Shown here: positions 204 through 64,000 of the stretch, piece by piece
Layout: the number at the start of each line of letters is the position of its first letter
How positions within the stretch are numbered: the first letter of the stretch is position 1
Source: Octopus sinensis
Lineage: Eukaryota
Assembly: GCF_006345805.1 (NCBI RefSeq)
Contig: NC_043017.1
Location: 16,120,001 to 16,184,000, forward strand
Direction of reading: 5' to 3'
Length of the DNA stretch: 64,000 bases
The notes under the pieces: generated by a model
Told to the model about the DNA's origin: nothing
The model's database searches: none
What the model saw: only the letters and a program-made list of their open reading frames with translations
Made by a program: the position numbers and the translations under genes

Positions 204-543
204 TATAGGTACAGGACGTCACAAACTGTAAACAACATGAAATACGAAAACAAATGAGATGAACGAAGGAAACAAATGGAAAACAGGACAAGGAACATAA
301 AGAACGACCCTTCATCAGTTGTCGGCTGTCCATCTACTCCTCATTTCGAGCATTGAACGACAATACAAGTCTTCGAAGGCAGTTGCTAACACAAAAGCCA
401 CAAGAAATGGACAGCCGACAACTGATGAAGGGTCGCTCTTTATGTTACTTGTCCTGTTTTTCCATTTGTTTCTCTCGTTGTTTGCGTATTCATCTCATTT
501 GTTTTCGTATTTCATATTTTACTGCTGGTGACGTCCTGTATCC

Positions 544-547
<4 letters not shown>
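204..547. repeat. Foldback element (arms ~204-333 / 407-547), probably PLE-terminus derived
   Basis: Diverged ~130-bp inverted arms between microsatellites. Each arm has CTGATGA (422-428 +, 312-318 -), but no clear GAAA half-core. Confidence 0.7.
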
Positions 548-7914: not shown

Positions 7915-8164
7915 GAGCTGACATCGAAATCTATAGATTGCAGCGATGAGGGTCATTGCGTTGCGTTAACCTCTAAATGCCATTCTTCTCTTTGCCATAA
8001 TTTTATTCATTAGAACAATACTGAGGAGTTGGACGAACTTGAGAAAACGTTTCCTGAAACAACACCATACTGAATTCACCTTACAGCTCGTGTGTGTATG
8101 TGTGCATGTGCAAGTCTATGTGTGTGTGTCTGTGCACAGGTTCATCAGGTAAGCCATGCCATAA

Positions 8165-8213
8165 CTCACCTGATGAACCTGTGAATGCACAGGTGAGACA
8201 TTAAAGTAGCGAG
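8165..8213 (+). ncRNA. Type I hammerhead ribozyme, mutated
   Basis: CTCAC-CTGATGA-ACCTGTG aatg CACAGGT-GAGA-CATTAAAG-TA-GCGAG: perfect 7-bp stem II, GAAA>GAGA; short inverted copy at ~8135-8150. Confidence 0.7.
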
Positions 8214-9044: not shown

Positions 9045-10530
9045 TATGGCTTTCCCCTCGTTATCGAGTATGGCCATTGTACGAAGCTTAACTGTTATTG
9101 GTGCTGTGATCAAATGTGACTTTTTAGCCCAGCTAAAGATCTACAATGTCTTGTACAGAATTGGCAACTAATACCTTTACCGGTAATAGCCGGCTATAGT
9201 TGTAACTGGGCTTCATGTACCTTTGCATGTTGTTTAAGTCCTCCTGCCGAATTACACTCTCTTCCACATGCCCGACAGATATGATTAGTATGGTGTATTT
9301 CACCACCACCAGTGGCCAGGTTCTCACTCATCTGTCTCGCTTTATGACTACGAAGATGACTCTTGCGTCCAGCTTTACTGAGGCAGGGTCTTGCACAGAC
9401 ATTGCATGTCAGGATCAAGGGAAGACTCTTCCCATCTGGAAGTGTAACAGTGATGCCCTTCCTGACATCCCTCCTTACTTTCCCATGTGCAACTCGAGAT
9501 TTCTCAAAAGTGGCTGTCCTCTCGTGCACAATCCTTCTCCACCTGCTACGATCAATAGCTATGCCTTCCCATGTGTCAGGAGAGATGCAAGCATCTCTTA
9601 AGGAAGCCTTCAGCAAGTCCTTATACCTCTTTTTTGGTTTATGTGGAAGTCGTTATCCTTTAGCTAACTCTCCATAAAAGAGTTATTTTGGCATCCTTGA
9701 ATCCTTCATCCTGACCAGATGACCACTCCATCTGAGCCTTTGCTTTAACACAAGAGCTTCTATACTTTCACACCGAGAGCCTTCCAATATTTCAAAATCA
9801 CTGATGCGGTCCTTCCAATTAATGCCATAGATCCGTCTGAGGCACATCTGATGGGAATGTTCCAGTTGTTTAAGATGGTATCGATATGTGATCCACGTCT
9901 CACAGGCATAGAGAAGAGAAGGGAGCACACATGCCTTGTACACCTTTATCTTCGTCTTTCTGCATATGTCTCGCCGACTCCAGAGGCGCTTTTCTAGCCC
10001 TCCGAAAGCAACACTTGCTTTCCTAATTCTATATGGAATTTCATCATCCAAATTGCTATATCTATTAATAGTGCTTCCCAGGTAGACAAACTGATCAACT
10101 ACATCAAGTTTTTTACCATACACATAGATATTTGGTACACTATGCTGCTTACCAGGGGTAGGTTGATGCATGACAACAGTTTTCTTGAGATTGACTGTCA
10201 ATCCTAAGGCAGTGCAAGCATCAGAGAATGCATTCAAAATGTGTTGCATATCAATCTGTGTGTGTGCTACTAGCTCACAATCATCAGCATACAAAAGGTC
10301 TCTTATGATAGAGGTAAATACCTTTGTGTTTGCAGCAAGGCGCCTGATATTAGATATGCTGCCAGAGGTTCGATAATGGACGTAAACACTGTATCTGCAG
10401 TTTCTGAATGCAATACAGAACACCATTGCAAAATATATGGAAAATAGGGTCGGTGCCAGAATATCCCTCTGTTTCACTCCATTTTGTATTGAAATGGGCT
10501 CCGACATTTTCCCTCTAACATTCACCCTGC
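9045..10530 (-). mobile_element. 5'-truncated RTE-clade LINE (RT, C-terminus with two C2H2-like fingers, 3' UTR)
   Basis: GVKQ..LAPTLF, LLYADD, FVYLGS, LLYACETW, RLRWSGHLVRM..SRMPK. ORFs 9683-10786 and 9194-9616 are in the same frame, split by one TAA. Flanked by (CATA)n on both sides. Confidence 0.93.
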
Positions 10531-10700
10531 CATACATACATACATACATACATACATACATACATACATACATACATACATACATACATACATACATACA
10601 TACACACACACATACATGCATACATACATACATACATACATACATACATACATACATACATACATGCATGCATGCATACATACATACATACATACATACA

Positions 10701-10734
<34 letters not shown>

Positions 10735-11039
10735 CACAAGTATGTATACATATGCATATATATTCTTTACTATGTGGAAGACACATTTTAGCCGCTCAAA
10801 AAAGAACAAAAAACAAAAAAAGCACGCACAAACTGTTAACTTCTCTTAACCATTATTTCGTGTCAAAATGTTCATCACATTGTCTGCAACCTGGTCACTG
10901 CAACTGATTTGAAACTTAGTTCCTGGCCAATATATATAGGCATCAGGATTTTAGGTTTGATGCTTTAGTTCCTCTCTAGTGCGAACCTGCTATCTTAAAG
11001 GTAAGACATAAAGAGGGAGGTACATATATATGTATGTGT

Positions 11040-22492: not shown

Positions 22493-22955
22493 TATGTATA
22501 TATATATTTATATGATATACGTATATATACACTGCAGGTAGCTTACAGTTGAAGCAGTAACACAGACACACACATTTATATATGTATAGATGTGTGTGTG
22601 TTTATTTGTGTGAGTAAGTATGTATATGAATATATATATATATAAAGGATATAAACCCTTAGTAATAACGTACGTATGTATACTCCACATGGTACATCAT
22701 GATTACTAATGGCAAGGTTTTTTTCACCAAATCTGCTGATCAAATGTCCATATAAATTTTGAATTATTTGGGGCTATAACATTACGTTAATGCCATGTAA
22801 GAATAGGTGGAGAGATTAAGCACTGATACACACTGTACAAAAGAAATCAGTATGACCTTTGCTCTTCTATTATAAGTCTTTCTGTTTCAAGGACTCTGTC
22901 TCTCATCAGGCGGTGTCAGAATCTCTGCGTCAACAGTAACGTGACGTTGACTTTA
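21981..22955. repeat. 450-bp inverted duplication (21981-22430 / 22506-22955) with 75-bp microsatellite spacer
   Basis: About 3 mismatches seen; identical 60-aa ORFs on opposite strands; degenerate CT(G/A)ATGA...GAAAC motif near the outer ends. Confidence 0.93.
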
Positions 22956-27261: not shown

Positions 27262-27290
27262 CTGATGAAGTCATAAATTCGACCGAAACA
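27262..27290 (+). ncRNA. Partial hammerhead core
   Basis: CTGATGA-AGTC ataaattc GACC-GAAAC; stems I and III not recoverable. Confidence 0.45.
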
Positions 27291-35352: not shown

Positions 35353-35452
35353 NNNNNNNNNNNNNNNNNNNNNNNNNNNNNNNNNNNNNNNNNNNNNNNN
35401 NNNNNNNNNNNNNNNNNNNNNNNNNNNNNNNNNNNNNNNNNNNNNNNNNNNN
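35353..35452. other. Assembly gap (100 N)
   Basis: Direct reading. Confidence 1.
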
Positions 35453-44606: not shown

Positions 44607-45240
44607 TGTTTCTTTATTAGCCACACAGGGCTGAACATAGACGGGACAGATTACAAAGTAGAGCTTTCCTTTTTTTGCGGGAGGGGGGGAGGTGAGGTAG
44701 GTTTCCGATCAAAAGGGATCGTAAAAGGGAAAGAAAAAAAGAAAAAGGAAACGATCAATAGAGATCGTGTATCACAGAAATGTCATGATGTAAAGTGTAA
44801 AGGGGGAAGCAGATAAGGTTTATCCGTGGAAAGAAAAGCCTACGGAAAAGACCACAGTAACCTCGGTCAATAATGTCGCCTATTAACACATTTGTTTGCA
44901 AGTAAGTAACTCTCTGTTTTATATTTTTTCCGGGTTCATAGGATCATGCTGAAGGTGGCTTCGTCATTCATACATGCCATCCTTGCTACATTCACGCATC
45001 TTTTTTTTTAAACATTCGCTAGACAAAACTTGCCTCTCTACTCTCACTTTCCTTTTCAAGTGATACTTGAAGACATTGATGAGAGACTGACGAGAGAGGA
45101 AAGTGTTTGTCTCTAATCCTTTCAGACGCGTCCACCAAATACATTCTTTCGCCATAGCCACAAGGATGATGAAAATAGGTCTTCCTTCCCGTTTGAAAGA
45201 AGGAGGCGTGACGATATTAACGATAGACTCGGCTGATAAA
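44607..45240 (-). mobile_element. 3' fragment of an L1/Tx1-like LINE (ORF2 C-terminus plus 3' UTR)
   Basis: FIILVAMAKECIWWTR...LINVFKYHLKRKVRVER fits the L1/Tx1 'AK..IW..R' C-terminus; ends aataaagaaa. Confidence 0.65.
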
Positions 45241-45246
45241 TAGAAG

Positions 45247-45294
45247 GTCTTACAGCTGTTTCCAGGATATTTTTTATATCCCTTCATCGGAGAC
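45247..45294 (-). ncRNA. Type I hammerhead (U4C) with a degenerate divergent partner at 45298-45341 (+)
   Basis: GTCT-CCGATGA-A-GGGATAT aaaaa ATATCCT-G-GAAA-CAGCTG-TA-AGAC. Confidence 0.75.
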
Positions 45295-45511
45295 GCTCTG
45301 ATAAAAGGATATACAAAATATCCTGGAAACACCTGAAAGATCTATTCATATGGTCTATCCATAGCACTTACTCAGCATTACCTGACACCTTTCGGTCTTA
45401 CTGACATCATTACCTCTCATATGTGTGTGTATATATATATGTATATATACACATATATATATCCACATATACACTCACACACACATATATATACACATAT
45501 ACACATACATA

Positions 45512-48010: not shown

Positions 48011-48089
48011 TATATATATATATATATATATAATAGAAATATTAAAATTACTAAGTCTCTCTAAAAGAGATCACGGCAGCGTTCCTGGA

Positions 48090-48503
48090 AAATAATAGTT
48101 ATCGCCATATTAATATGGCATTCTTATAAAAATAAGAATAAAGCTGTCCGCTTATTAGCTCCATGAGGCCATCGCCTTAAGTTAGCTATTTGATACACAA
48201 ACTGTATCCATATAACCTTCGAACAAGGGAGGTCAGTCGCTCCACACTACTTGATCGACAGCTACAGACGCGTTTCGGGGTATTGCCCCTTTTCAACGCT
48301 GCATTGAAAAGGGGCAATACCCCGAAACGCGTCTGTAGCTGCCGGTCAAGTAGTGTGGAGCGACTGACCTCCCTTGTTCGAAGGTTATATGGATACAGTT
48401 TGTGTATCAAATAGCTAACTTAAGGCGATGGCCTCATGGAGCTAATAAGCGGACAGCTTATTCTTATTTTTATAAGAATGCCATATTAATATGGCGATAA
48501 CTA

Positions 48504-48509
<6 letters not shown>
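48090..48509. repeat. ~420-bp nearly perfect palindrome centred at ~48300 (element extends left to ~48031)
   Basis: Identical 74-aa ORFs on opposite strands; almost no spacer. Confidence 0.95.
48298..48339 (+). ncRNA. Type I hammerhead with U3-A8 core (mirror copy 48261-48302 on -)
   Basis: GCTGCA-TTGAAAA-GGGG caata CCCC-GAAA-CGCG-TC-TGTAGC. Confidence 0.8.
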
Positions 48510-48544
<35 letters not shown>

Positions 48545-48860
48545 AACATATATACGTACATACATATATATATACATATATATATATGTGTGTGTGTATG
48601 TGTGAATATTTATACTTCGTACCTTGTTTCATGAATTTCTGTTTTATTGTTTAGTATTATCGTTATTGTTAAAAGTGATAGTATATTACGTTAGAATGCA
48701 TTTACTGGACTATACGAAGCATGATAATCCAATGTAATGCGATATATTCTTCAATGTTGTTCTTTATGTATTTTGCACATGTGATTACTATGTACGATTT
48801 GCCCATGTATGTATATGTATGCATATTTGTATATTTTTTATATGTATATATGTGTTTATG

Positions 48861-56094: not shown

Positions 56095-56202
56095 GTATGT
56101 ATTTATGCATATGTGTGTCTGTGACACCGCTTGACAACTTTTATTAAAAAGCAGCAAAAATATTACAGAGTTTCATGTTCCCGTTCGTGGGACATTCTAA
56201 AC

Positions 56203-56248
56203 AAAACTGTCTGACGAACAGGAATGTGAAACTCTGAGTAACAGTTTT
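56203..56248 (+). ncRNA. Canonical-core type I hammerhead in a foldback element (~56140-56276)
   Basis: AAAACTGT-CTGACGA-ACA ggaa TGT-GAAA-CTCTGAG-TA-ACAGTTTT; 8-bp stem I. Confidence 0.88.
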
Positions 56249-56514
56249 TGTGATATTTTTGCTGCTTTTTGATAAACAATATTAATCTACCAAGGTACTC
56301 TTTTTCCCACCTTGTTTCACATTTATGTGCTTACTCTGGTATATATATATATATATATGATGGACCCATCCTCTCCATCATTTCTGAGCTTCTCAGCATT
56401 TGCTATAACGGAACAAGTATGTTTTGGCAATGTTTCAGGCACCGTTACTATAAATAAAATAAAAGCAAAATAAAAATCCTTCCCAAGGCATAGACTTAAA
56501 AGGTTGGTTTTCCG

Positions 56515-56648
56515 CTCTCTGAGGATTTCCGGATTCTTTTGGCATCTATTATTCCTCTCGCCACTGGTTACACTCGTACTTTAACCACTCAACTGCCCCT
56601 GACTCACCCTTTGTCTCTCCCAGCACCTCTTGTCACACTTGCTGCTGA
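56515..56648 (+). mobile_element. CR1/L2-like LINE fragment, inverted relative to 57672-57790
   Basis: attcctctcgc-actggttacactcgtactttaaccac...cttgtcacacttgctgc is shared. Confidence 0.65.
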
Positions 56649-56774
56649 CTTAACAAGGGACATAAATCTTACGTTACTTAACAGTTTCAGAGTTATTCCC
56701 CCTATCTCAAATCTTGTCCCTGTATTTTATTTTCTGAGACGTCAGTATAAATCTTTGTTAAACATTTCACACAC

Positions 56775-57052
56775 TCCATCCATCCACCCATCCATCCACC
56801 CATCCATCCACCCATCCATCCACCCATCCACCCATCCACCCATCCATCCACCCATCCATCCACCCATCCATCCACCCATCCATCCTCCCATCCATCCACC
56901 CATCCATCCACCCATCCATCCACCCATCCATCCACCCATCCATCCACCCATCCACCCATCCACCCATCCATCCACCCACCCATCCATCCACCCATCCATC
57001 CACCCATCCATCCATCCGTCCATCCATCCGTCCATCCATCCATCCATCCACC
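56775..57052. repeat. (CCAT/CCAC)n microsatellite
   Basis: Direct reading. Confidence 0.95.
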
Positions 57053-57077
57053 CGTGTCTGTCTGGGTTCATATTAGC

Positions 57078-57289
57078 TTTTTACTTGTTTCAGTCATTAA
57101 ACTGCAGCTACGCTGGGGCATCGCTTTAAAGAATTTTAGTCGGACAAATGTTTTGTTTTTGTAAAGCCTGGCAGTTATTCCATCGGACTCTAAGGCCGAA
57201 CCGTTAAGTTACAGGAACGTAAACACACCAAAACCAGTTGTCAAGCGGTGTCACAGACACACATATGCATATATACATACATACATACA

Positions 57290-57325
<36 letters not shown>

Positions 57326-57370
57326 TATATATATGACGGGCTTCTTTCGGTTTCCGTCCACCAAATCCAC
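57078..57370 (-). mobile_element. SINE family B
   Basis: gacgggcttctttcggtttccgtccaccaaatccact plus the 3' body. Confidence 0.7.
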
Positions 57371-57514
57371 TGTGTGCGTGTGTGTATGGGTTTAGGGTCT
57401 GTATATAAGTGCGTGTGTGTGTATGGGCATGCGTGTGCATGTATATTTGTAAATGTATGTGTGTGTGTGTGTGTGTGTGTGTCTGTGTGTCTGTGTGCAT
57501 ATATATTTTCGCAC

Positions 57515-58120
57515 TTGCTGAGGTTGAAGGGAGGGACAGTGCCCGTGAACGTGGCATTCCGTCCGAGGATGGAGAGTTTGATGCGGTTATCGTTTTGCAG
57601 GGAAGACATGAACAAGGAGAAAATTCCAGAGGGACGATGTTGTGGTGAGGAAAGACTGGGATTGTGCAGGGAAAGGCATGCTGGACAGGGCAGCAAGTGT
57701 GACAAGAGGTGCTGGGAGAGACGAAGGGCGAGTCAGGGGCAGTTGGGTGGTTAAAGTACGAGTGTAACCAGTTGCGAGAGGAATACGGCCATTGTAGTAG
57801 CTATGGAAGAGAGAGAGAGAGAGAGGGGGGGAGACAGACAGACAGACAGAGAGAAGTTGGGGATAGGAGACACAACAGACGTGTGGACGAGGAGGTCGGG
57901 GTGTGTCCATTAGAGATGGAACGCCAATCAGTCGAGTGGTTCTTCGGTGGATGCAGTGCAGGTTCGCATCGGGCATAGAAGCAGCACCATTTCAGATGCC
58001 AGACCAATATTCTGTTGTGGAATATAAAGGGTTTTAGTAGCTGTTTGGAGTTGAAAACCTTTGCTATAGATGTACTTTCGCCAAGAGAGATCCTCGGTGA
58101 AGGCCAGCATTTGGAGTGAC
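57515..58120 (-). mobile_element. Decayed CR1/L2-like LINE ORF2 C-terminus
   Basis: LHCIHRRTTRLIG.PSL, LSLFHSYYNG, SFLTTTSSLWN.L...VFP. Confidence 0.65.
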
Positions 58121-58192
58121 TGTGAGGGCTGGATTAAGACCCATAGAGGCCCTCACCACTTAAAAGATGTTGGTGGCCCCACATATATATAT

Positions 58193-58294
<102 letters not shown>

Positions 58295-58329
58295 TATATA
58301 ATACTTATTTTAAGCAGCACAGAATTCAA

Positions 58330-58378
58330 CAAAATCTGTTACTCTGAGTTTCTCGTGCCGTTCATCAGACAGTTTTTG
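58330..58378 (-). ncRNA. Type I hammerhead, same family as 56203
   Basis: CAAAAACTGT-CTGATGA-ACGGCACGA-GAAA-CTCAGAG-TA-ACAGATTTTG; an ~80-bp insert in (TA)n. Confidence 0.75.
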
Positions 58379-58389
58379 CTATATATATA

Positions 58390-58433
<44 letters not shown>

Positions 58434-59359
58434 AAACAAGTCAAAAATAGAAAATGCTAAAATAATTTTATAGTGAATCTTTCAGTACCGGTTTCGGTCA
58501 TTTTGAGACCTTTTCAACTGTAACGATTAAATAATTAAATTTAGAAAAATTAGAAGAAAAGTTTTTTTAAAGGAATATTTCTATAGTAGTGTTCAGATAT
58601 AAGTGGCATTCTGCCTTTCTCTGACTCCCTTGTTTGCACTTGTGTGTTCGAGGTCGTTGTGAGTTCTTGGTAGGGTAGGAGAAGAAGAAGGCTGATGTGG
58701 AGAGGGGGTGGGAGTGGGGAAATCTGGGAGTGCCCTGATGGTCGTATTTTGAACTAAAATCTCTCCAACGCTGGGAGAAAAGCGCCATTTGGTTCTCAGA
58801 CTATGAAGCCGTCTTTCAAACAGAGCACGCCTCCAACAACCCTTTCCAGAAAATAAGAAAACCAAAACAACACCCAAACACCGATACACACCTGTCTAAA
58901 AATCGGAACCTTCACTACTTTCAAAAAAAGAATACAGGACCTAACCCTAACTCTGTAAGCAGCCAGCGATACAATATCAGGAATACCCCCACTTCAAGCA
59001 GAGAAAGGATAAATCAACACCCACAGCATAGACACTGCAACCTTATCCCCACCCAAAAGAGTTACCAACGAAATCTCCGTCCCATCAACCGGTTAAACAA
59101 CCATGCACAACAAACCCACACCTCTTACAATGATTACTAACGAAGGCCTCCTGGAACACCACACCCGAATATGGGATATCGGGATGTTCTCCTCAATACT
59201 GCCCCAAGAACACACACCATAAATCACAACAGGAGACCCCACATCAACAAAGAACAACTATATAATAGCTACCGTCCCAACCACTGCATTCATTTTTTAG
59301 ACCCAATACGCAAACACAGAGACACAAGATAGCACCAAACAAGCAGGAGGAACCAAAAG

Positions 59360-61305
59360 TAATAAAAATTATCAATCTAACTCACAAGGAACTAACAGCA
59401 AACCAAATAAACATACTTTCCAAAGGACTCAAGTTTACACCCACCCCACATCACCCCAACTACAACGAAATGAAAGAAGACATCGCAGAATTCTGCAGAA
59501 AATTAAGACTTACTGAGGAGCTATACGATAAATACAACGAGGACGAATCGTTAGCCAGAAATAGGAGTAACTACACCCCTTCGAAAGGTAAGAACAAAAC
59601 ACTTGATGATTTCTGTGACCACATATCTAATTACCCATATCAACATATGCACAAACAAAAATACAAACCAAACTTCAGCAAAAAAGAATGGGCTGAGTTG
59701 AACAAATTAAAACAAGATAAAACAATAACAATCAAAGAGGCCGATAAAGGGAGTGCTGTTGTCTTCATGGATACGACATTTTACATAACTTTGGTACTTT
59801 CTATGCTGGAAGACACAACATACTATGAAAAGGCACAAAACTACAGTCAACAAAAAATAATGAGGGAACTAAAATCCATATTAAACCCATACAAAGCAGG
59901 GCTCACCGACAAAGAATATGATTATATGACCAATTTCACAAGTAAAACCAGCCAATTCTACGGTATACCTAAGATCCACAAAAGTGAACAAATAAGCAAC
60001 GCATGCAAGATAGCTACAGACAAAATAATTAAAGTCCCTAATCCTAATGACCTCAAATTGAGACCCATAATAGCAGGTCCCGCATGCGAAACCCACCGCC
60101 TCAGTAACTTTTTAGACACCCTGTTAAAACCACTCCTCAAACATGTCAAAAGCTATATAAGGGACGACTTAGATATGCTCAATCACCTACCGAATACTAT
60201 AAACAAAAACACCATACTGGTATCCTTCGATGTAGTCAACCTCTACTCCAATATCCCCCACAGAGGCAATCCAATTCTGGCTAGAGAATCACGCCAACGA
60301 ACTACCACACCGCATCAAAAAAGAATTCGTGATAGAAGGGGTTAAATTCATCCTGGAAAATAACTTCTTCGCCTTCAATGACAACTTCTACCGACAAAAA
60401 TCGGGGACTGCGATGGGTACACGAATGGCCCCCTCTTTTGCCAACCTAGTCATAGGATATCTAGAGATCAGTCTGTATCGTAAGGTTCTAGAAAGATATG
60501 GCAGCCCTTTCTCCATCTACATAGAAAACAACTGGAAGAGATATCTAGATGACTGTTTCATTCTTTGGCATAAAAATATAGAAAAACTCATAGAATTCCA
60601 GGAAATTTTAAACGGACTGGACGTAAACAGTCTTCAACACAGAAGCCGACAGTAAAAATCAAAGAAAAACTTACAACCAAAAGCCTTACCATACATCTCC
60701 ACACACAACCCTCTCAATAACGAAGCCTTCGGCACCATCCTCCACAACATACCCCTCCTAAAAAAAGACCACAGAATGAACACAATCCTCCAAACACACA
60801 CGATCATAAAAAGCAAAAGACAGCCTAGATCCATGAAAAGTCTCCTAACACAAGCCCGAATTCACTCTTCAACACAGAAGCCGACAGTAAAAAAAGGTGG
60901 AAGACCCAATTGCGGGATATGCGACTATCTAATTGAGGGATCAGAGTTCTCCTTCAAACAGGGACAACGGTTTACAGTGAAAAGCAACTTCACATGTGCT
61001 TCGGAGAACCTAATATACTCACTAACCTGCTCCGGGTGTCAAGAGCAGTACATAGGCCAAACAAAAAATAGTTTGCGTAAACGAATGGCCCTGCACAGAT
61101 CCCAGATAAAAATTCCCCAAAACAGAAAAAATAGCTTTTAGCCAACACATGGATACTTGCGCCAAAAAAAAAACACCAAGCTTCAGGATTTTCCCCCCTC
61201 TACCAATTTAGGGACGATACAACCTCGAGACAACGAATAAGTAAAGAAAATCTCTTTATTACAAAATACAGGCCACTTCTTAACGGGTCTACGACAAACA
61301 ATTAA
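59360..61305 (+). pseudogene. PLE RT plus GIY-YIG polyprotein, frameshifted, with RT thumb deletion
   Basis: ORFs 59470-60345, 60329-60655 and 60776-61141. Confidence 0.9.
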
Positions 61306-62112: not shown

Positions 62113-64000
62113 AACGGGAAGCTTTATGAAAATAAACAAAAGACGAAGGCAGGTGGAAAACAAACGAACAATTGTATTAGTATGGCGCTCAGGAAATATA
62201 AATAAAACAAGTCTTTAACGTTTCGAGCCTACACTCTTCAACAGAAAGATACACAGAGAGAGAAAAACACAGAAAGAAGGAGAGAAAAAAAATGCGTGCA
62301 GTAGCTAACGAATCAAACATGGCGATCTGATTTCGGCCAGAGGTCAAAGATCAAACATGAGACGCGAGAGCGAAATAAGGGATAGAGAAAATAGGTTGAT
62401 AAAAGGGTTGAGGGACCAGCTAAAAGTGCGTGGGAGGGGTCTGGATGTGTGTATGTATAGGGTTGGTGTATGTATTAGTATGTATAAGGGTGTGGTGTGT
62501 GTGTGTGTGTGTGTGTATGAGAGAGTATTAGTGCGTAAGATTGGTCTGGACGTGCGTATGTATGGGGTTGGTGTATGTATTAGTATGTATTAGTATGTAT
62601 TAGTACGTATTGGTATGTATAGGTGTGTGTGTGTGTGTGTGAGTGAGAGAGTATAAGTGCGTATGCGGGGTCTGGACGTGTGTATGTATAGGGTTGGTGT
62701 AAGTATTAGTATGTACTAGTATGTATTAGTACGTATTAGTATGTATTAGTTGGTGTGTGTATTAGTATGGCACATCATATGTGATGTGATGTGTAAAGTC
62801 ATGTGGTGTAGTGAGGAGAAGGGGGGAGGGGAGAAGAGGGGGGGAGGAGGGGAGGGGAAGAAGAGGGGGAGGAGAAGGGGGAAGAGGAGACGATGGGGGA
62901 GAAGGAAGGTGAGGAGGGGGATGAAGGAGGAAAGAGGGGAGGGGGAGAGAGGAGAGAGGGGAGAGAGAGAAGGGAGGAGGAGTGAGGGGGACAGAGGGAA
63001 AGGGGAAGAGGGAGGGAGAAAGAGGGAAGAAGGGAAGGGGAGTAGGGGTGAAAGGATGAAGGACTGAAGAAGTAGGGGTCGGGGGGAGAAAGAGGAGAAA
63101 GGATAGGTGAGGAGGGGGGAGAGGGGGGGTTAGATGAGGAGGGGGGGGAGAGTTGAGACCAAATGGCGTATAAGAGCGAAGAGAGAAGATTAATTCCTGT
63201 TCACGGCGCGCAAACGGGAATCCGGATGGCCTCTGTGTAAGGACAAACCGAACACAGATAGGTGTTGCAAGGAGTGACCGGTGGAGCGGAAATGGCGTGA
63301 GACCGCGTGTGTCGTTCGCAAGGTGGATGTCACGAAGGTGTTCCGCGAACCGGTCAGCCAAGCGGCGTCCCGTTTGTCCGATGTACAAGGAATTGCAGAG
63401 AGAGCAAGAGATGCAATAGATAATATTGCTGGAGGTGCAGGTGAAGGAGTGGATGATGGGATAGGGTCGATGGTGGGTGCTAGTGAGGCGGGTGGTGTGT
63501 TGGAGAGGTAAGGGCAAGTGCGGCAACGTGGGCGGGAGCAGGGGAACGAGCCGGTTGGAGGTAGGGTCAGGGAAGGAGCTATGGACCAAAAGGTCTCGAA
63601 GGTTGTGGGCTCGTTTGAAAGAGGGGAGGGGTCGGTTAGGGAAGAGGTGTGAAGTGGACGGGTCGGACTGGAGATGACGGAAAGCTCGAAGAATGGTGCG
63701 TTGGAGACGTAGGGTCGTGGGGAAAAGGGAGGCGGGAGACTACAGGGCGGGTTCGGGGAGAGAGAGCAGATACACGGTCCACGGACCGTGCTCTGGCAAG
63801 GGCGGTGTGGATAGTGGTGAGGGGGTATCCACGTAGGGTGAAGTGGTGAGCCATACGTTGAGACTGTGTCTCAAAGTCATGGTCGTCACTACAGAGCCTA
63901 CGTAGACGGAGGAATTGGGAATAGGGGATGGAAAGCTTGGTGTGTTCTGGGTGGGAGGAAGAGAGTTGAGGTATGAGTGTGAGTCTGTGTGTTTGTAGTG
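62113..64000 (-). mobile_element. Second Neptune-type PLE (RT thumb, linker, GIY-YIG, 3' terminus); runs off the window
   Basis: KLSIPYSQFLRLRRLCS, RGYP, CSRPRCRTC, SSNIIYCISCSLCNSLYIGQTGRRLADRFAEH, PFGLN. Confidence 0.93.
62212..62249 (-). ncRNA. Minimal hammerhead variant (CUGUUGA)
   Basis: TCTTT-CTGTTGA-A-GAG tgtagg CTC-GAAA-CG-TT-AAAGA in the PLE 3' terminus. Confidence 0.7.

What the first reader, a model, noticed from the sequence alone, without database searches (positions are those of the whole stretch)
48090..48509. Foldback insertions pivot immediately upstream of the hammerhead, giving back-to-back ribozymes
Seen: the centre of this ~420-bp palindrome is HHR stem I itself. The same geometry recurs in unrelated families at 45247-45341, 56140-56276 and 8135-8213, and more loosely at 204-547. 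Insertions at 58330-58380 and 51062 also begin just 5' of an HHR. Established: PLEs often show an inverted 5' pLTR. Inference: a preferred template end or strand-switch point lies just upstream of the HHR, creating MITE-looking retroelements with a ribozyme on each strand.
Basis: partly seen in the sequence, partly recalled or inferred. Interest (0 to 1): 0.75.

Follow-up and report, generated by a model that had tools for sequence, protein, structure and literature searches.

The report
Head-to-head hammerhead retroelement twin insertion
The 420-base palindrome is the core of a 480-base insertion made of two head-to-head copies of a repeat that carries a hammerhead-ribozyme motif, sitting in a TA microsatellite; this layout is typical of Penelope-like jumping genes and was likely made by copying RNA from both cut DNA ends, and the fold beside the ribozyme motif is a real but family-dependent preference, so it is a tidy example of a known pattern, not a new kind of element.

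Summary
The palindrome is real. Its centre lies in the 5' strand of stem I of a hammerhead (HHR) motif with a U3-A8 core. The whole insert is 48030-48509: a 270-nt minus arm and a 214-nt plus arm of a 362-bp tandem, retrozyme-like repeat, inside (TA)n.

Genome-wide the family is built this way. Both outer ends are element 3' ends, at monomer position q~208 or q~271. Of 64 classifiable loci, 63 pair one of each. This matches published Penelope-like element (PLE) insertion units: inverted 5'-truncated copy, one-sided tail, two internal reverse-transcription start sites.

The pivot preference is family-dependent:
- **This family:** pivots are spread along the monomer with several hot spots. Back-to-back HHRs occur at 10 of at least 171 head-to-head junctions, against about 1.9 expected.
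- **Two sister families, one present in the window:** arms stop sharply about 15 nt upstream of the core (23 of 45 arms; 37 of 50 junctions).

The best inference is that template RNAs begin there. These are independent insertions, not MITE-like copies. Raw-read support could not be tested. Earlier scans noted the same pattern in other genomes.

The parts
48011..48029 (.). (TA)n target microsatellite, left remnant
   Evidence: Read. The flank of the minus arm's outer end is TA-rich.
48030..48299 (-). Arm T: minus-strand copy of the 362-bp monomer from about q1-4 (at the pivot) out to q271, ending ...TTCTATTAT next to (TA)n
   Evidence: L001: minus hit q1-271, 97%. for the outer end; 263 of 270 positions identical to the reference copy L006:1501-1862.
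48030..48091 (-). 'Tail': q209-271, present on this arm only and lying outside the 420-bp palindrome
   Evidence: Across the family one arm ends at q~271 and the other at q~208 in 63 of 64 classifiable loci.
48247..48296 (-). HHR motif on the minus strand. Core TTGAAAA is the reverse complement of 48290-48296, helix II of 48277-48289 and GAAA of 48273-48276. Predicted cleavage lies between 48267 and 48266. The native 5' strand of stem I is missing.
   Evidence: Parsed. Self-cleavage is untested.
48297..48303 (.). Pivot: the non-palindromic centre CGCTGCA, part of the plus arm's stem I 5' strand
   Evidence: Contigs from tandem copies diverge from the window at 48296 (loose ends).
48296..48509 (+). 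Arm U: plus-strand copy from about q357-358 through q210, ending ...AACTATTATTT next to (TA)n
   Evidence: 208 of 209 positions identical to the reference copy.
48296..48353 (+). HHR motif on the plus strand. Stem I 5' remnant 48296-48303, core TTGAAAA 48304-48310 (U3, A8), helix II 48311-48323, GAAA 48324-48327, palindromic helix III ACGCGT 48327-48332. Predicted cleavage after C48333. Stem I 3' strand 48334-48353.
   Evidence: The fold of a tandem-context copy gives stems I and II. The core is TTGAAAA in 170 of 174 family copies.
48510..48545 (.). (TA)n target microsatellite, right remnant
56140..56200 (-). Second family: decayed short inverted arm of a head-to-head pair
   Evidence: inverted repeats 56140-56167/56249-56276 and 56166-56194/56208-56236..
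56193..56339 (+). Second family: long arm that begins 18 nt before CTGACGA (56211) and ends ...CTTACTCTGG next to (TA)n
45236..45420 (.). Third family: two inverted HHR-like motifs with a pivot about 4-5 nt before each core. The plus arm runs on to at least 45420.
58304..58378 (-). Solo arm of the sister family with a CTGATGA core. It begins 11 nt before the core and has TA runs on both sides.
   Evidence: Family behaviour.

Best explanation
The palindrome is the inner part of a 480-bp head-to-head twin insertion (48030-48509) of a non-coding, HHR-motif-bearing 362-bp tandem repeat in a (TA)n microsatellite. It was likely made by a Penelope-like element (PLE) enzyme that cut both DNA strands and primed reverse transcription from each at one of two internal start sites of the RNA (q~271 and q~208).

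Shown here:
- the anatomy of the insert;
- the family-wide rule that the two outer ends are one of each start site;
- the (TA)n target;
- the 0-10-nt overlaps shared by both arms, or short fillers, at the junctions;
- the greater likeness of the two arms of one locus.

Inferred:
- Each arm is a cDNA grown from one DNA end.
- The two cDNA 3' ends were joined by annealing over a few bases.
- In this copy both cDNAs ended inside the 5' strand of stem I (q4 and about q357).

That position is a modest hot zone in this family and a sharp one (-15) in two sister families. The most likely reason is that many template RNAs begin there, so full-length cDNAs from both sides meet just before the ribozyme motif and place one motif on each strand. 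A transcript through the palindrome would mostly fold as a long hairpin. Ribozyme activity of either motif is untested.
For: **Anatomy.**

**The repeat is tandem and abundant.** The period is about 362 bp. The first look found 675 candidates.

**Head-to-head is the norm.** A junction was called in 22 of 26 distinct places among the best matches.

**Outer ends.** Of 79 junction loci, 63 pair q~271 with q~208, 1 has two q~271 ends and none has two q~208 ends. Nine have another kind of end and 6 are cut by the locus edge. Flanks are mostly TA-rich (binomial P = 7e-18).

**The same rule holds in the second family.** 16 of 17 two-armed loci pair a short end (+61 to +71) with a long end (+131 to +164).

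**Junctions.** Most carry 0-10 nt shared by both arms or short fillers, and they differ between loci.

**The arms of one locus are coupled.** They differ at 1.5 sites against 2.4 for arms of different loci, per 111 nt (P = 3e-8). They share rare variants eight times more often.

**Pivot preference.**
- 23 of 45 arm ends at -15.
- 37 of 50 junctions with a gap of at most 26 nt.
- 10 back-to-back places against 1.9 expected in this family.
- Three solo arms begin at -15 or -13 directly in simple-repeat flanks (TA for L098 and L116).

**Published mechanism.**
- Frangieh 2024 (PMC11167929, main text read): a purified PLE protein cleaves and extends both strands, starts at two adjacent internal RNA sites, and the 'tail' is the stretch between them.
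- Craig 2021 (PMC8557442, passages): inverted 5'-truncated copy, tail often at one end only, (TA)n bias.
- Cervera and de la Pena 2014 (PMC4209133, passages): the U3-A8 core variant in PLE HHRs.
Against: - No transcript 5' end was observed, so the template-end step is inference only.
- In this family the HHR-adjacent zone holds only 16 of 98 arm ends in the sample conditioned on gap<=400. In the best-match sample (21 junctions, window excluded), which was not chosen by pivot, 3 of 42 ends lie at q2-5 and none of 42 lies in q281-362.
- Other hot spots are as strong: q293-304 holds 12 of 98 against 5.0 expected, and q61-100 holds 13 of 42.
- Some second-family arms run further upstream (-23, -24, -28, -63 and beyond -190), so RNAs do not all start at -15.
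- No PLE open reading frame was linked to these repeats.
- No Rfam hammerhead model matches.
- The commonest core in the second family is CCGACGA, which departs from the canonical U4.
- Frangieh 2024 saw no difference in start-site use between the two strands in vitro, so the published work does not explain the strict one-of-each rule.
- Gene conversion between inverted arms could also make the two arms alike.
Confidence: 0.6

Rival explanations
1. The arms end beside the HHR because reverse transcriptase is stopped or switches template there. The cause would be the folded or protein-bound ribozyme region acting like a template boundary, not an RNA that begins there.
For: - The boundary coincides with the 5' edge of stem I in four families with unrelated stem sequences.
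- Long-form copies show that the sequence can continue upstream of -15.
- Frangieh 2024 reports that the HHR cleaves only when the protein is present, and that the protein-binding region lies just downstream.
- Other hot spots in this family (q71-83, q41-49) sit at the 3' foot of hairpins I read in the sequence, as expected for pausing (my reading).
Against: - In the tandem family many arms pass one to five HHRs without stopping, so any stop is weak there.
- The enzyme has already opened stem I by the time it reaches the 5' strand, so a structural block at that point is not expected (inference).
Confidence: 0.2
2. One cDNA snapped back on itself at its 3' end and copied itself, giving the palindrome. 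The second outer end was then set by endonuclease resolution or by joining at the inner TATTAT site.
For: - In the window the two arms end only about 9 nt apart around a 7-nt loop.
- Perfect palindromes occur: TGCA at 3 loci and GCTAGC at 7 of 50.
- The arms of one locus share rare variants.
- Craig 2021 suggests endonuclease-mediated resolution as the source of the tail.
Against: - Most junctions in this family join very different monomer positions, such as 253|75, 218|29 and 143|245. A simple snap-back does not give these.
- Independent fillers of up to 13 nt, and larger ones, occur.
- The published enzyme extends both strands.
Confidence: 0.12
3. The pivot position is set by where two cDNA ends can pair, that is short palindromic words such as TGCA, CTAG, TTCGAA or AAGCTT. 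Neither a template end nor the ribozyme would be involved.
For: - Palindromic words lie at several hot spots: TGCA at q362-3, CTAG at q298-301 and TTCGAA at q76-81 (my reading of the monomer).
- Centres GCTAGC and AAGCTT recur.
Against: - Arms ending at q299-302 or q352-356 join many different partner positions rather than themselves.
- Solo arms end at -15 or -13 directly against flanking DNA with no partner.
Confidence: 0.05
4. It is a DNA-level foldback element or MITE that moves as a palindromic unit, or an assembly artefact.
For: - The overall shape looks like a MITE.
- The window's junction sequence recurs at one other place, C23:11976501.
- A few asymmetric junctions recur at two loci.
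Against: - The outer ends are unequal (q271 against q208), and the arms vary in monomer number and pivot from locus to locus.
- The locus that shares the junction has different arms.
- The two flanks of the window copy are different unique sequences.
- The same architecture appears at 171 or more places in a chromosome-scale assembly.
- Contigs of three other runs cover both arms.
Confidence: 0.03

Closest known systems
Insertion unit of endonuclease-bearing Penelope-like elements (Craig, Yushenova, Rodriguez, Arkhipova 2021, PMC8557442; Frangieh et al. 2024, PMC11167929)
   Same: - Partial tandems.
- An adjacent inverted 5'-truncated copy.
- An extension ('tail') at one end only, bounded by two internal reverse-transcription start sites.
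- Insertion into AT-rich or (TA)n DNA.
- An HHR motif some 40-240 nt upstream of the 3' end.
   Different: - No reverse transcriptase or GIY-YIG open reading frame lies in the unit.
- The tail is about 63 nt (about 95 nt in the second family), against 30-40 bp in the papers.
- The one-of-each pairing of ends is near absolute here (63:1:0), whereas the papers say 'often'.
- A preferred arm end at the 5' edge of the HHR is not mentioned in the passages I read.
Metazoan non-LTR retrozymes (Cervera and de la Pena 2020, PMC7229834; Li, Clavereau, Pollet 2026 preprint, 10.64898/2026.07.22.740005)
   Same: Non-coding tandem repeats of a few hundred bp, each with a type I HHR. The preprint argues they are non-autonomous derivatives of PLE pLTRs.
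   Different: - Term searches for 'inverted' found nothing relevant in either paper. Searches for 'palindrom' and 'head-to-head' in the preprint found nothing.
- Circular RNA and self-cleavage were not tested here.
- The preprint covers vertebrates. Run labels suggest this genome is a mollusc or another invertebrate.
U3-A8 minimal HHR of the Schistosoma Cercyon PLE (Cervera and de la Pena 2014, PMC4209133)
   Same: A core with U3-A8 in place of C3-G8, a short palindromic helix III, and a location in PLE repeats. That paper also notes pairs of minimal HHRs on opposite strands.
   Different: Their opposite-strand pairs lie about 100-700 bp apart. Here the two cores are 7-40 nt apart. Helix I is long here (about 17 bp).
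Twin-priming inversions of LINE-1
   Same: Both strands of the cut target would prime reverse transcription, giving an inverted segment joined over a few shared bases.
   Different: In L1 the two segments are different parts of one RNA. Here both arms are the same 3'-terminal part, each starting at a defined internal start site.
MITEs and foldback DNA transposons
   Same: A short, non-coding, palindromic, multicopy look.
   Different: The outer ends are unequal. Pivots and monomer numbers vary. Both outer ends are retroelement 3' ends. No transposase-type ends or duplications could be read in the TA flanks.

Membership tests
Penelope-like element insertion unit (non-autonomous derivative) | Adjacent inverted 5'-truncated copy (head-to-head arms) | tested here: met
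   - Window.
- Family: a junction in 22 of 26 distinct best-match places, and 171 places within 400 nt.
Penelope-like element insertion unit (non-autonomous derivative) | Two internal reverse-transcription start sites, with a 'tail' at one end only | tested here: met
   The ends lie at q~208 and q~271. Of 64 classifiable loci, 63 have one of each. The tail is about 63 nt, longer than the published 30-40 bp.
Penelope-like element insertion unit (non-autonomous derivative) | Partial tandem (pseudo-LTR) organisation | tested here: met
   A 362-bp period, with up to 5 or more monomers per arm. The window copy itself has less than one monomer per arm.
Penelope-like element insertion unit (non-autonomous derivative) | AT-rich or (TA)n target | tested here: met
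   TA-rich flanks at both ends in the window and in most loci.
Penelope-like element insertion unit (non-autonomous derivative) | Reverse transcriptase plus GIY-YIG endonuclease, in the unit or in a partner with a shared 3' end | tested here: not met
   There is no open reading frame in the 362-bp unit. The window holds weak GIY-YIG matches, below Pfam's cut-off, at 60656-61141 and 62762-63739, and an RVT_1 match at 9683-10795. No shared 3' end was shown, so the mobilising partner is unidentified.
Hammerhead ribozyme, type I, minimal PLE kind | Conserved core (C3 U4 G5 A6 N7 G8 A9 ... G12 A13 A14) with helices I, II and III and a cleavable N-U-H site | tested here: inconclusive
   - The manual parse fits, with U3 and A8 (a published covariation).
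- Helix II is GGGG/CCCC, helix III is the palindrome ACGCGT, and the cleavage triplet is GUC.
- The core is TTGAAAA in 170 of 174 copies.
- The fold gives helices I and II, z = -2.84.
- No Rfam hammerhead model matches.
Hammerhead ribozyme, type I, minimal PLE kind | Self-cleavage | not testable with these tools
   This needs an in-vitro transcription and cleavage assay, as monomer and as dimer.
Non-LTR retrozyme | Tandem non-coding repeats that each carry a type I HHR | tested here: met
Non-LTR retrozyme | Expression as self-cleaved circular RNA | not tested
   The RNA runs found hold only small shares of the stretch and are kept as contigs.
MITE / foldback DNA transposon | Fixed terminal inverted repeats and target-site duplication, with the unit copied as a whole | tested here: not met
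   The outer ends are unequal, and pivots and arm lengths vary. A duplication cannot be read within TA repeats.

The most novel reading that the evidence does not exclude
The 5' edge of the hammerhead marks a defined 5' terminus, or a telomerase-like template boundary, of the RNAs that Penelope-type enzymes copy. Twin insertions would arise from an obligately asymmetric, paired priming event. In that event the two DNA ends use the two adjacent start sites, one each, on templates from one source. That is why 63 of 64 twins carry one long and one short end and why their arms share rare variants. Back-to-back ribozyme palindromes would then be the full-length product of this reaction rather than accidents.
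Probability: 0.3. Interest if true: 0.6.

Novelty: new member of a known kind. Interest (0 to 1): 0.4.

Why it matters
How Penelope-like elements integrate is still poorly understood, and their tandem and inverted products confuse assemblies and repeat annotation.

This genome offers hundreds of young, small, non-coding twin insertions that can be read like reaction products. They show three things:
- HHR-bearing tandem repeats of the retrozyme kind carry every structural hallmark of PLE integration in an invertebrate-type genome.
- The two alternative start sites are used one each in a twin. In-vitro work did not predict this.
- Arm ends cluster at the 5' edge of the ribozyme motif in some families.

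The last two points give concrete, testable constraints on the mechanism: a paired enzyme, and where the template begins or ends. For annotation, such palindromes should be filed as PLE or retrozyme insertion scars, not as MITEs or microRNA-like hairpins. Rfam microRNA models score them below their gathering thresholds.

Tried and rejected
- **Rfam.** No hammerhead family matched at the gathering threshold, at E<=10 on 48230-48370, or at E<=1 on 56120-58400. The whole-window E<=10 list was swamped by microsatellite and hairpin look-alikes of microRNA families. Only 150 of 565 rows were shown.
- **Raw reads.** Run X21 gave 0 laid reads with about 3% of the run read, so it is no test.
- **Contigs.** Contigs of X2, X4 and X3 cover both arms, but the listed pieces are at most 74 nt and none was shown to bridge the pivot. 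A narrower lay on 48266-48335 was sent six times and never answered.
- **Generic back-to-back core pattern.** There is a strong excess over control in both gap classes: 0-40 nt gives 2794 against 131, and 41-81 nt gives 1878 against 117. The excess is broad and mixes HHR families with other palindromes, for example the 204-547 family. It shows pervasiveness, not a sharp pivot.
- **Long arm against short arm.** They do not differ clearly in where they end or in length: 15 against 20 of 63 end in the stem I zone, and the medians are 400 and 313 nt. This gives no hint of which arm is made first.
- **Third family (45296-45420).** Most genomic hits cover only the downstream 72 nt. HHR copies are mostly single, and at most 2-3 of 30 loci look back-to-back.
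- **Initiator-like word.** CCA[T/C]TCT lies just before -15 in the sister families. This is my reading only, and I found no equivalent in the palindrome's family.
- **Earlier notes of this scan.** There are none for this genome. Similar notes exist for other genomes.
- **Literature.** A search for Penelope-like + hammerhead + inverted + pLTR found 5 papers, 4 listed. A search for Penelope + transcription start site + hammerhead ribozyme + retrotransposon found 4, 3 listed. In the passages I read, none states that inversion points or arm ends cluster at the HHR. Supplements were not opened.

Full report
**1. What is there**

Bases 48090-48509 form a near-perfect palindrome. One search finds arms 48141-48299/48301-48459 (159 nt, 98%) and 48090-48141/48458-48509 (52 nt, 100%). 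One search finds 3 substitutions and one 1-nt indel between the arms.

Reading outward from the centre, each arm starts TTGAAAA GGGGCAATACCCC GAAA CGCG TC | TGTAGC.... This fits a type I hammerhead:
- a short palindromic helix III (ACGCGT);
- a GUC cleavage triplet;
- U3 and A8 in place of C3 and G8.

That core covariation is published for a Schistosoma PLE (Cervera and de la Pena 2014, passage read).

The 7 central bases CGCTGCA (48297-48303) are not palindromic.

**2. The palindrome is part of a larger, asymmetric insert**

One arm used as a query finds 675 first-look candidates in the 2.7-Gb genome, of which 40 were scored. The matches turn out to be a tandem repeat with a 362-bp period.

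As coordinates I used one natural copy, L006:1501-1862, with q1 as the G of GCATTGAAAA. The core is q4-10 and the predicted cleavage lies after q33.
- The window's minus arm runs from about q4 out to q271 (48299 down to 48030).
- The plus arm runs from about q357 to q210 (48296-48509).
- Both outer ends read CTATTAT followed by (TA)n.

**3. The family rule**

In 22 of 26 distinct places among the best matches, the arrays are head-to-head (<-- | -->).

I then scanned for reverse-complemented and forward HHR 14-mers within 400 nt. This found 171 places, against 0 for the control. I fetched the first 48 in genome order.

Across 79 distinct junction loci:
- 63 pair an end at q~271 with an end at q~208;
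- 1 has two q~271 ends;
- none has two q~208 ends;
- 9 have another kind of end;
- 6 run off the fetched stretch.

Flanks are mostly TA-rich (P = 7e-18 against independent choice).

The two arms of one locus differ less than arms of different loci: 1.5 against 2.4 sites per 111 nt, P = 3e-8. They also share rare variants eight times more often. Either the arms come from the same or a very similar template, or they were homogenised later.

**4. This is the published PLE insertion architecture**

Craig et al. 2021 (passages) describe:
- partial tandems;
- an inverted 5'-truncated copy at the 5' end;
- a 30-40-bp tail often at one end only;
- a (TA)n bias;
- HHRs in the pseudo-LTRs.

Frangieh et al. 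2024 (main text) show that a purified PLE protein:
- cleaves and extends both DNA strands;
- starts reverse transcription at two adjacent internal RNA sites, the tail being the stretch between them;
- does not need HHR cleavage in vitro.

Here the tail is about 63 nt. The unit has no open reading frame, so it is a non-autonomous, retrozyme-like repeat. A 2026 preprint argues this origin for vertebrate retrozymes (abstract and passages). The window does hold weak GIY-YIG and RVT_1 matches elsewhere, but I did not link them to these repeats.

**5. Where are the pivots in the palindrome's own family?**

They are spread along the monomer.

*Best-match sample (21 junctions, window excluded):*
- 3 of 42 arm ends lie at q2-5 (P = 0.011);
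- 13 of 42 lie at q61-100;
- none lies in q281-362.

*Gap<=400 sample (49 junctions),* judged against a uniform null under the same condition:
- 16 of 98 ends lie within 20 nt upstream of U3 (9.0 expected, P = 0.017);
- 12 of 98 lie at q293-304 (5.0 expected, P = 0.004).

Both HHRs lie within 40 nt of each other at 10 places, with at least 7 different junction sequences. About 1.9 of 171 would be expected (P = 3e-5, or 3e-3 counting distinct junctions).

A fold of a tandem-context copy shows stem I to be about 17 bp, reaching back to about q333. The hot zone q341-q3 therefore lies inside its 5' strand.

So in this family the HHR-adjacent pivot is a real hot zone, but a minor one.

**6. Where are the pivots in other families?**

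*The arm at 56196-56300.* It belongs to a family with 2464 first-look candidates. In 30 fetched loci, 23 of 45 arm ends lie exactly 15 nt before core position 3, and 35 of 45 lie between -18 and -7.
- 16 of 17 two-armed loci pair a short end (+61 to +71) with a long end (+131 to +164).
- Three solo arms begin at -15 or -13 directly against simple-repeat flanks.
- About nine copies continue upstream into conserved sequence.
- Junctions differ by 0-13 nt of filler, so they are independent events.

*The sister family with a canonical CTGATGA core, to which the solo arm at 58304-58378 belongs.* It has 643 head-to-head places within 400 nt.
- 37 of the first 50 have at most 26 nt between the two 13-mers.
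- 7 of the 50 are the perfect palindrome centred on GCTAGC.
- The rest pivot further up in long-form sequence.

*Genome-wide,* back-to-back canonical cores within 40 nt occur at 2794 places against 131 for the control. The next gap class, 41-81 nt, also shows an excess of 1878 against 117. It includes palindromes that are not HHRs.

**7. Mechanism**

*Shown:* twin arms, fixed and complementary outer ends, TA targets, short overlaps at junctions, and the likeness of the two arms.

*Inferred:*
- Each arm is a cDNA primed from one DNA end.
- The two cDNA 3' ends pair over a few bases and copy each other.

The sharp -15 end, the fillers, and the solo arms ending at the same point fit templates whose 5' end lies there. 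Full-length cDNAs from both sides would then give back-to-back motifs. In the tandem family most cDNAs stop elsewhere.

The rivals are an enzyme stop or boundary at the HHR, snap-back of one cDNA, and pairing set by small palindromic words. None is excluded.

The strict one-of-each rule is not explained by the in-vitro paper, which saw no strand difference in start-site use.

**8. Caveats**

- No Rfam hammerhead model matches any of these motifs.
- Activity is untested.
- The commonest core in the 56196 family is CCGACGA (8 of 28), with variants that differ by CpG-type transitions. Its catalytic competence is doubtful.
- Raw-read support for the window copy could not be obtained (and six unanswered calls).
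- The flanks are different unique sequences, and the same architecture recurs at hundreds of loci. This argues against an artefact.

**9. Earlier notes and verdict**

Earlier notes of this scan describe the same fold-back PLE scars beside HHR motifs in other genomes. I treated them as leads only.

The object is a new member of a known kind.

Noticed in passing
Family-wide (loci L001-L088); in the window 48030 and 48509: Twin insertions almost always pair one outer end at q~271 with one at q~208: 63 of 64 classifiable loci. The two alternative start sites are therefore not chosen independently at the two DNA ends.
   Followed up: yes
Loci L041-L088 (monomer positions q293-304): A second hot spot of arm ends lies about 65-70 nt upstream of the HHR core, around ...CGAAACTAG|GTAAAT. 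It holds 12 of 98 ends against 5.0 expected, and the partner positions are diverse. It is absent from the best-match sample (0 of 42 ends in q281-362).
   Followed up: partly
window 56211 and loci L089-L118: The commonest core word of this family is CCGACGA (8 of 28), not CTGACGA. The other variants look like CpG-type transitions of it. Position 4 would then be C rather than the canonical U.
   Followed up: partly
window 59269-61141 (+) and 62762-63870 (-): Long open frames with weak GIY-YIG matches (E = 3e-4 and 1.4e-3, below Pfam's cut-off), facing each other. They are probably decayed Penelope-like elements.
   Followed up: no
window 9683-10795 (-): An open frame with an RVT_1 reverse-transcriptase match (E = 7e-8, above the cut-off). 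The element type was not determined.
   Followed up: no
window 204-547: A palindromic element with a 73-nt non-palindromic centre and a CTGATGA box, but no readable GAAA or helix II. The same centre recurs elsewhere in the genome (C1:14044201 and C1:14303202). It may be a different kind of foldback repeat.
   Followed up: partly
window 22884-22909 (-) and 27262-27289 (+): Two further CTGATGA...GAAAC matches found by the simple pattern. Their context was not examined.
   Followed up: no
window 35353-35452: A run of 100 N, which is a scaffold gap.
   Followed up: no
window 48258-48342: The palindrome centre scores as several microRNA precursor families in Rfam, for example mir-3910 at 64.5 bits against a gathering score of 95. 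Automatic annotation could mistake such scars for hairpin RNA genes.
   Followed up: partly
L007 (C6) and L017 (C3); L001 (window) and L034 (C23): Identical asymmetric junctions recur at two unlinked places, with different arm lengths or different outer-end types. This could be recurrence driven by shared bases, or inheritance of a pivot through transcripts that span it.
   Followed up: partly
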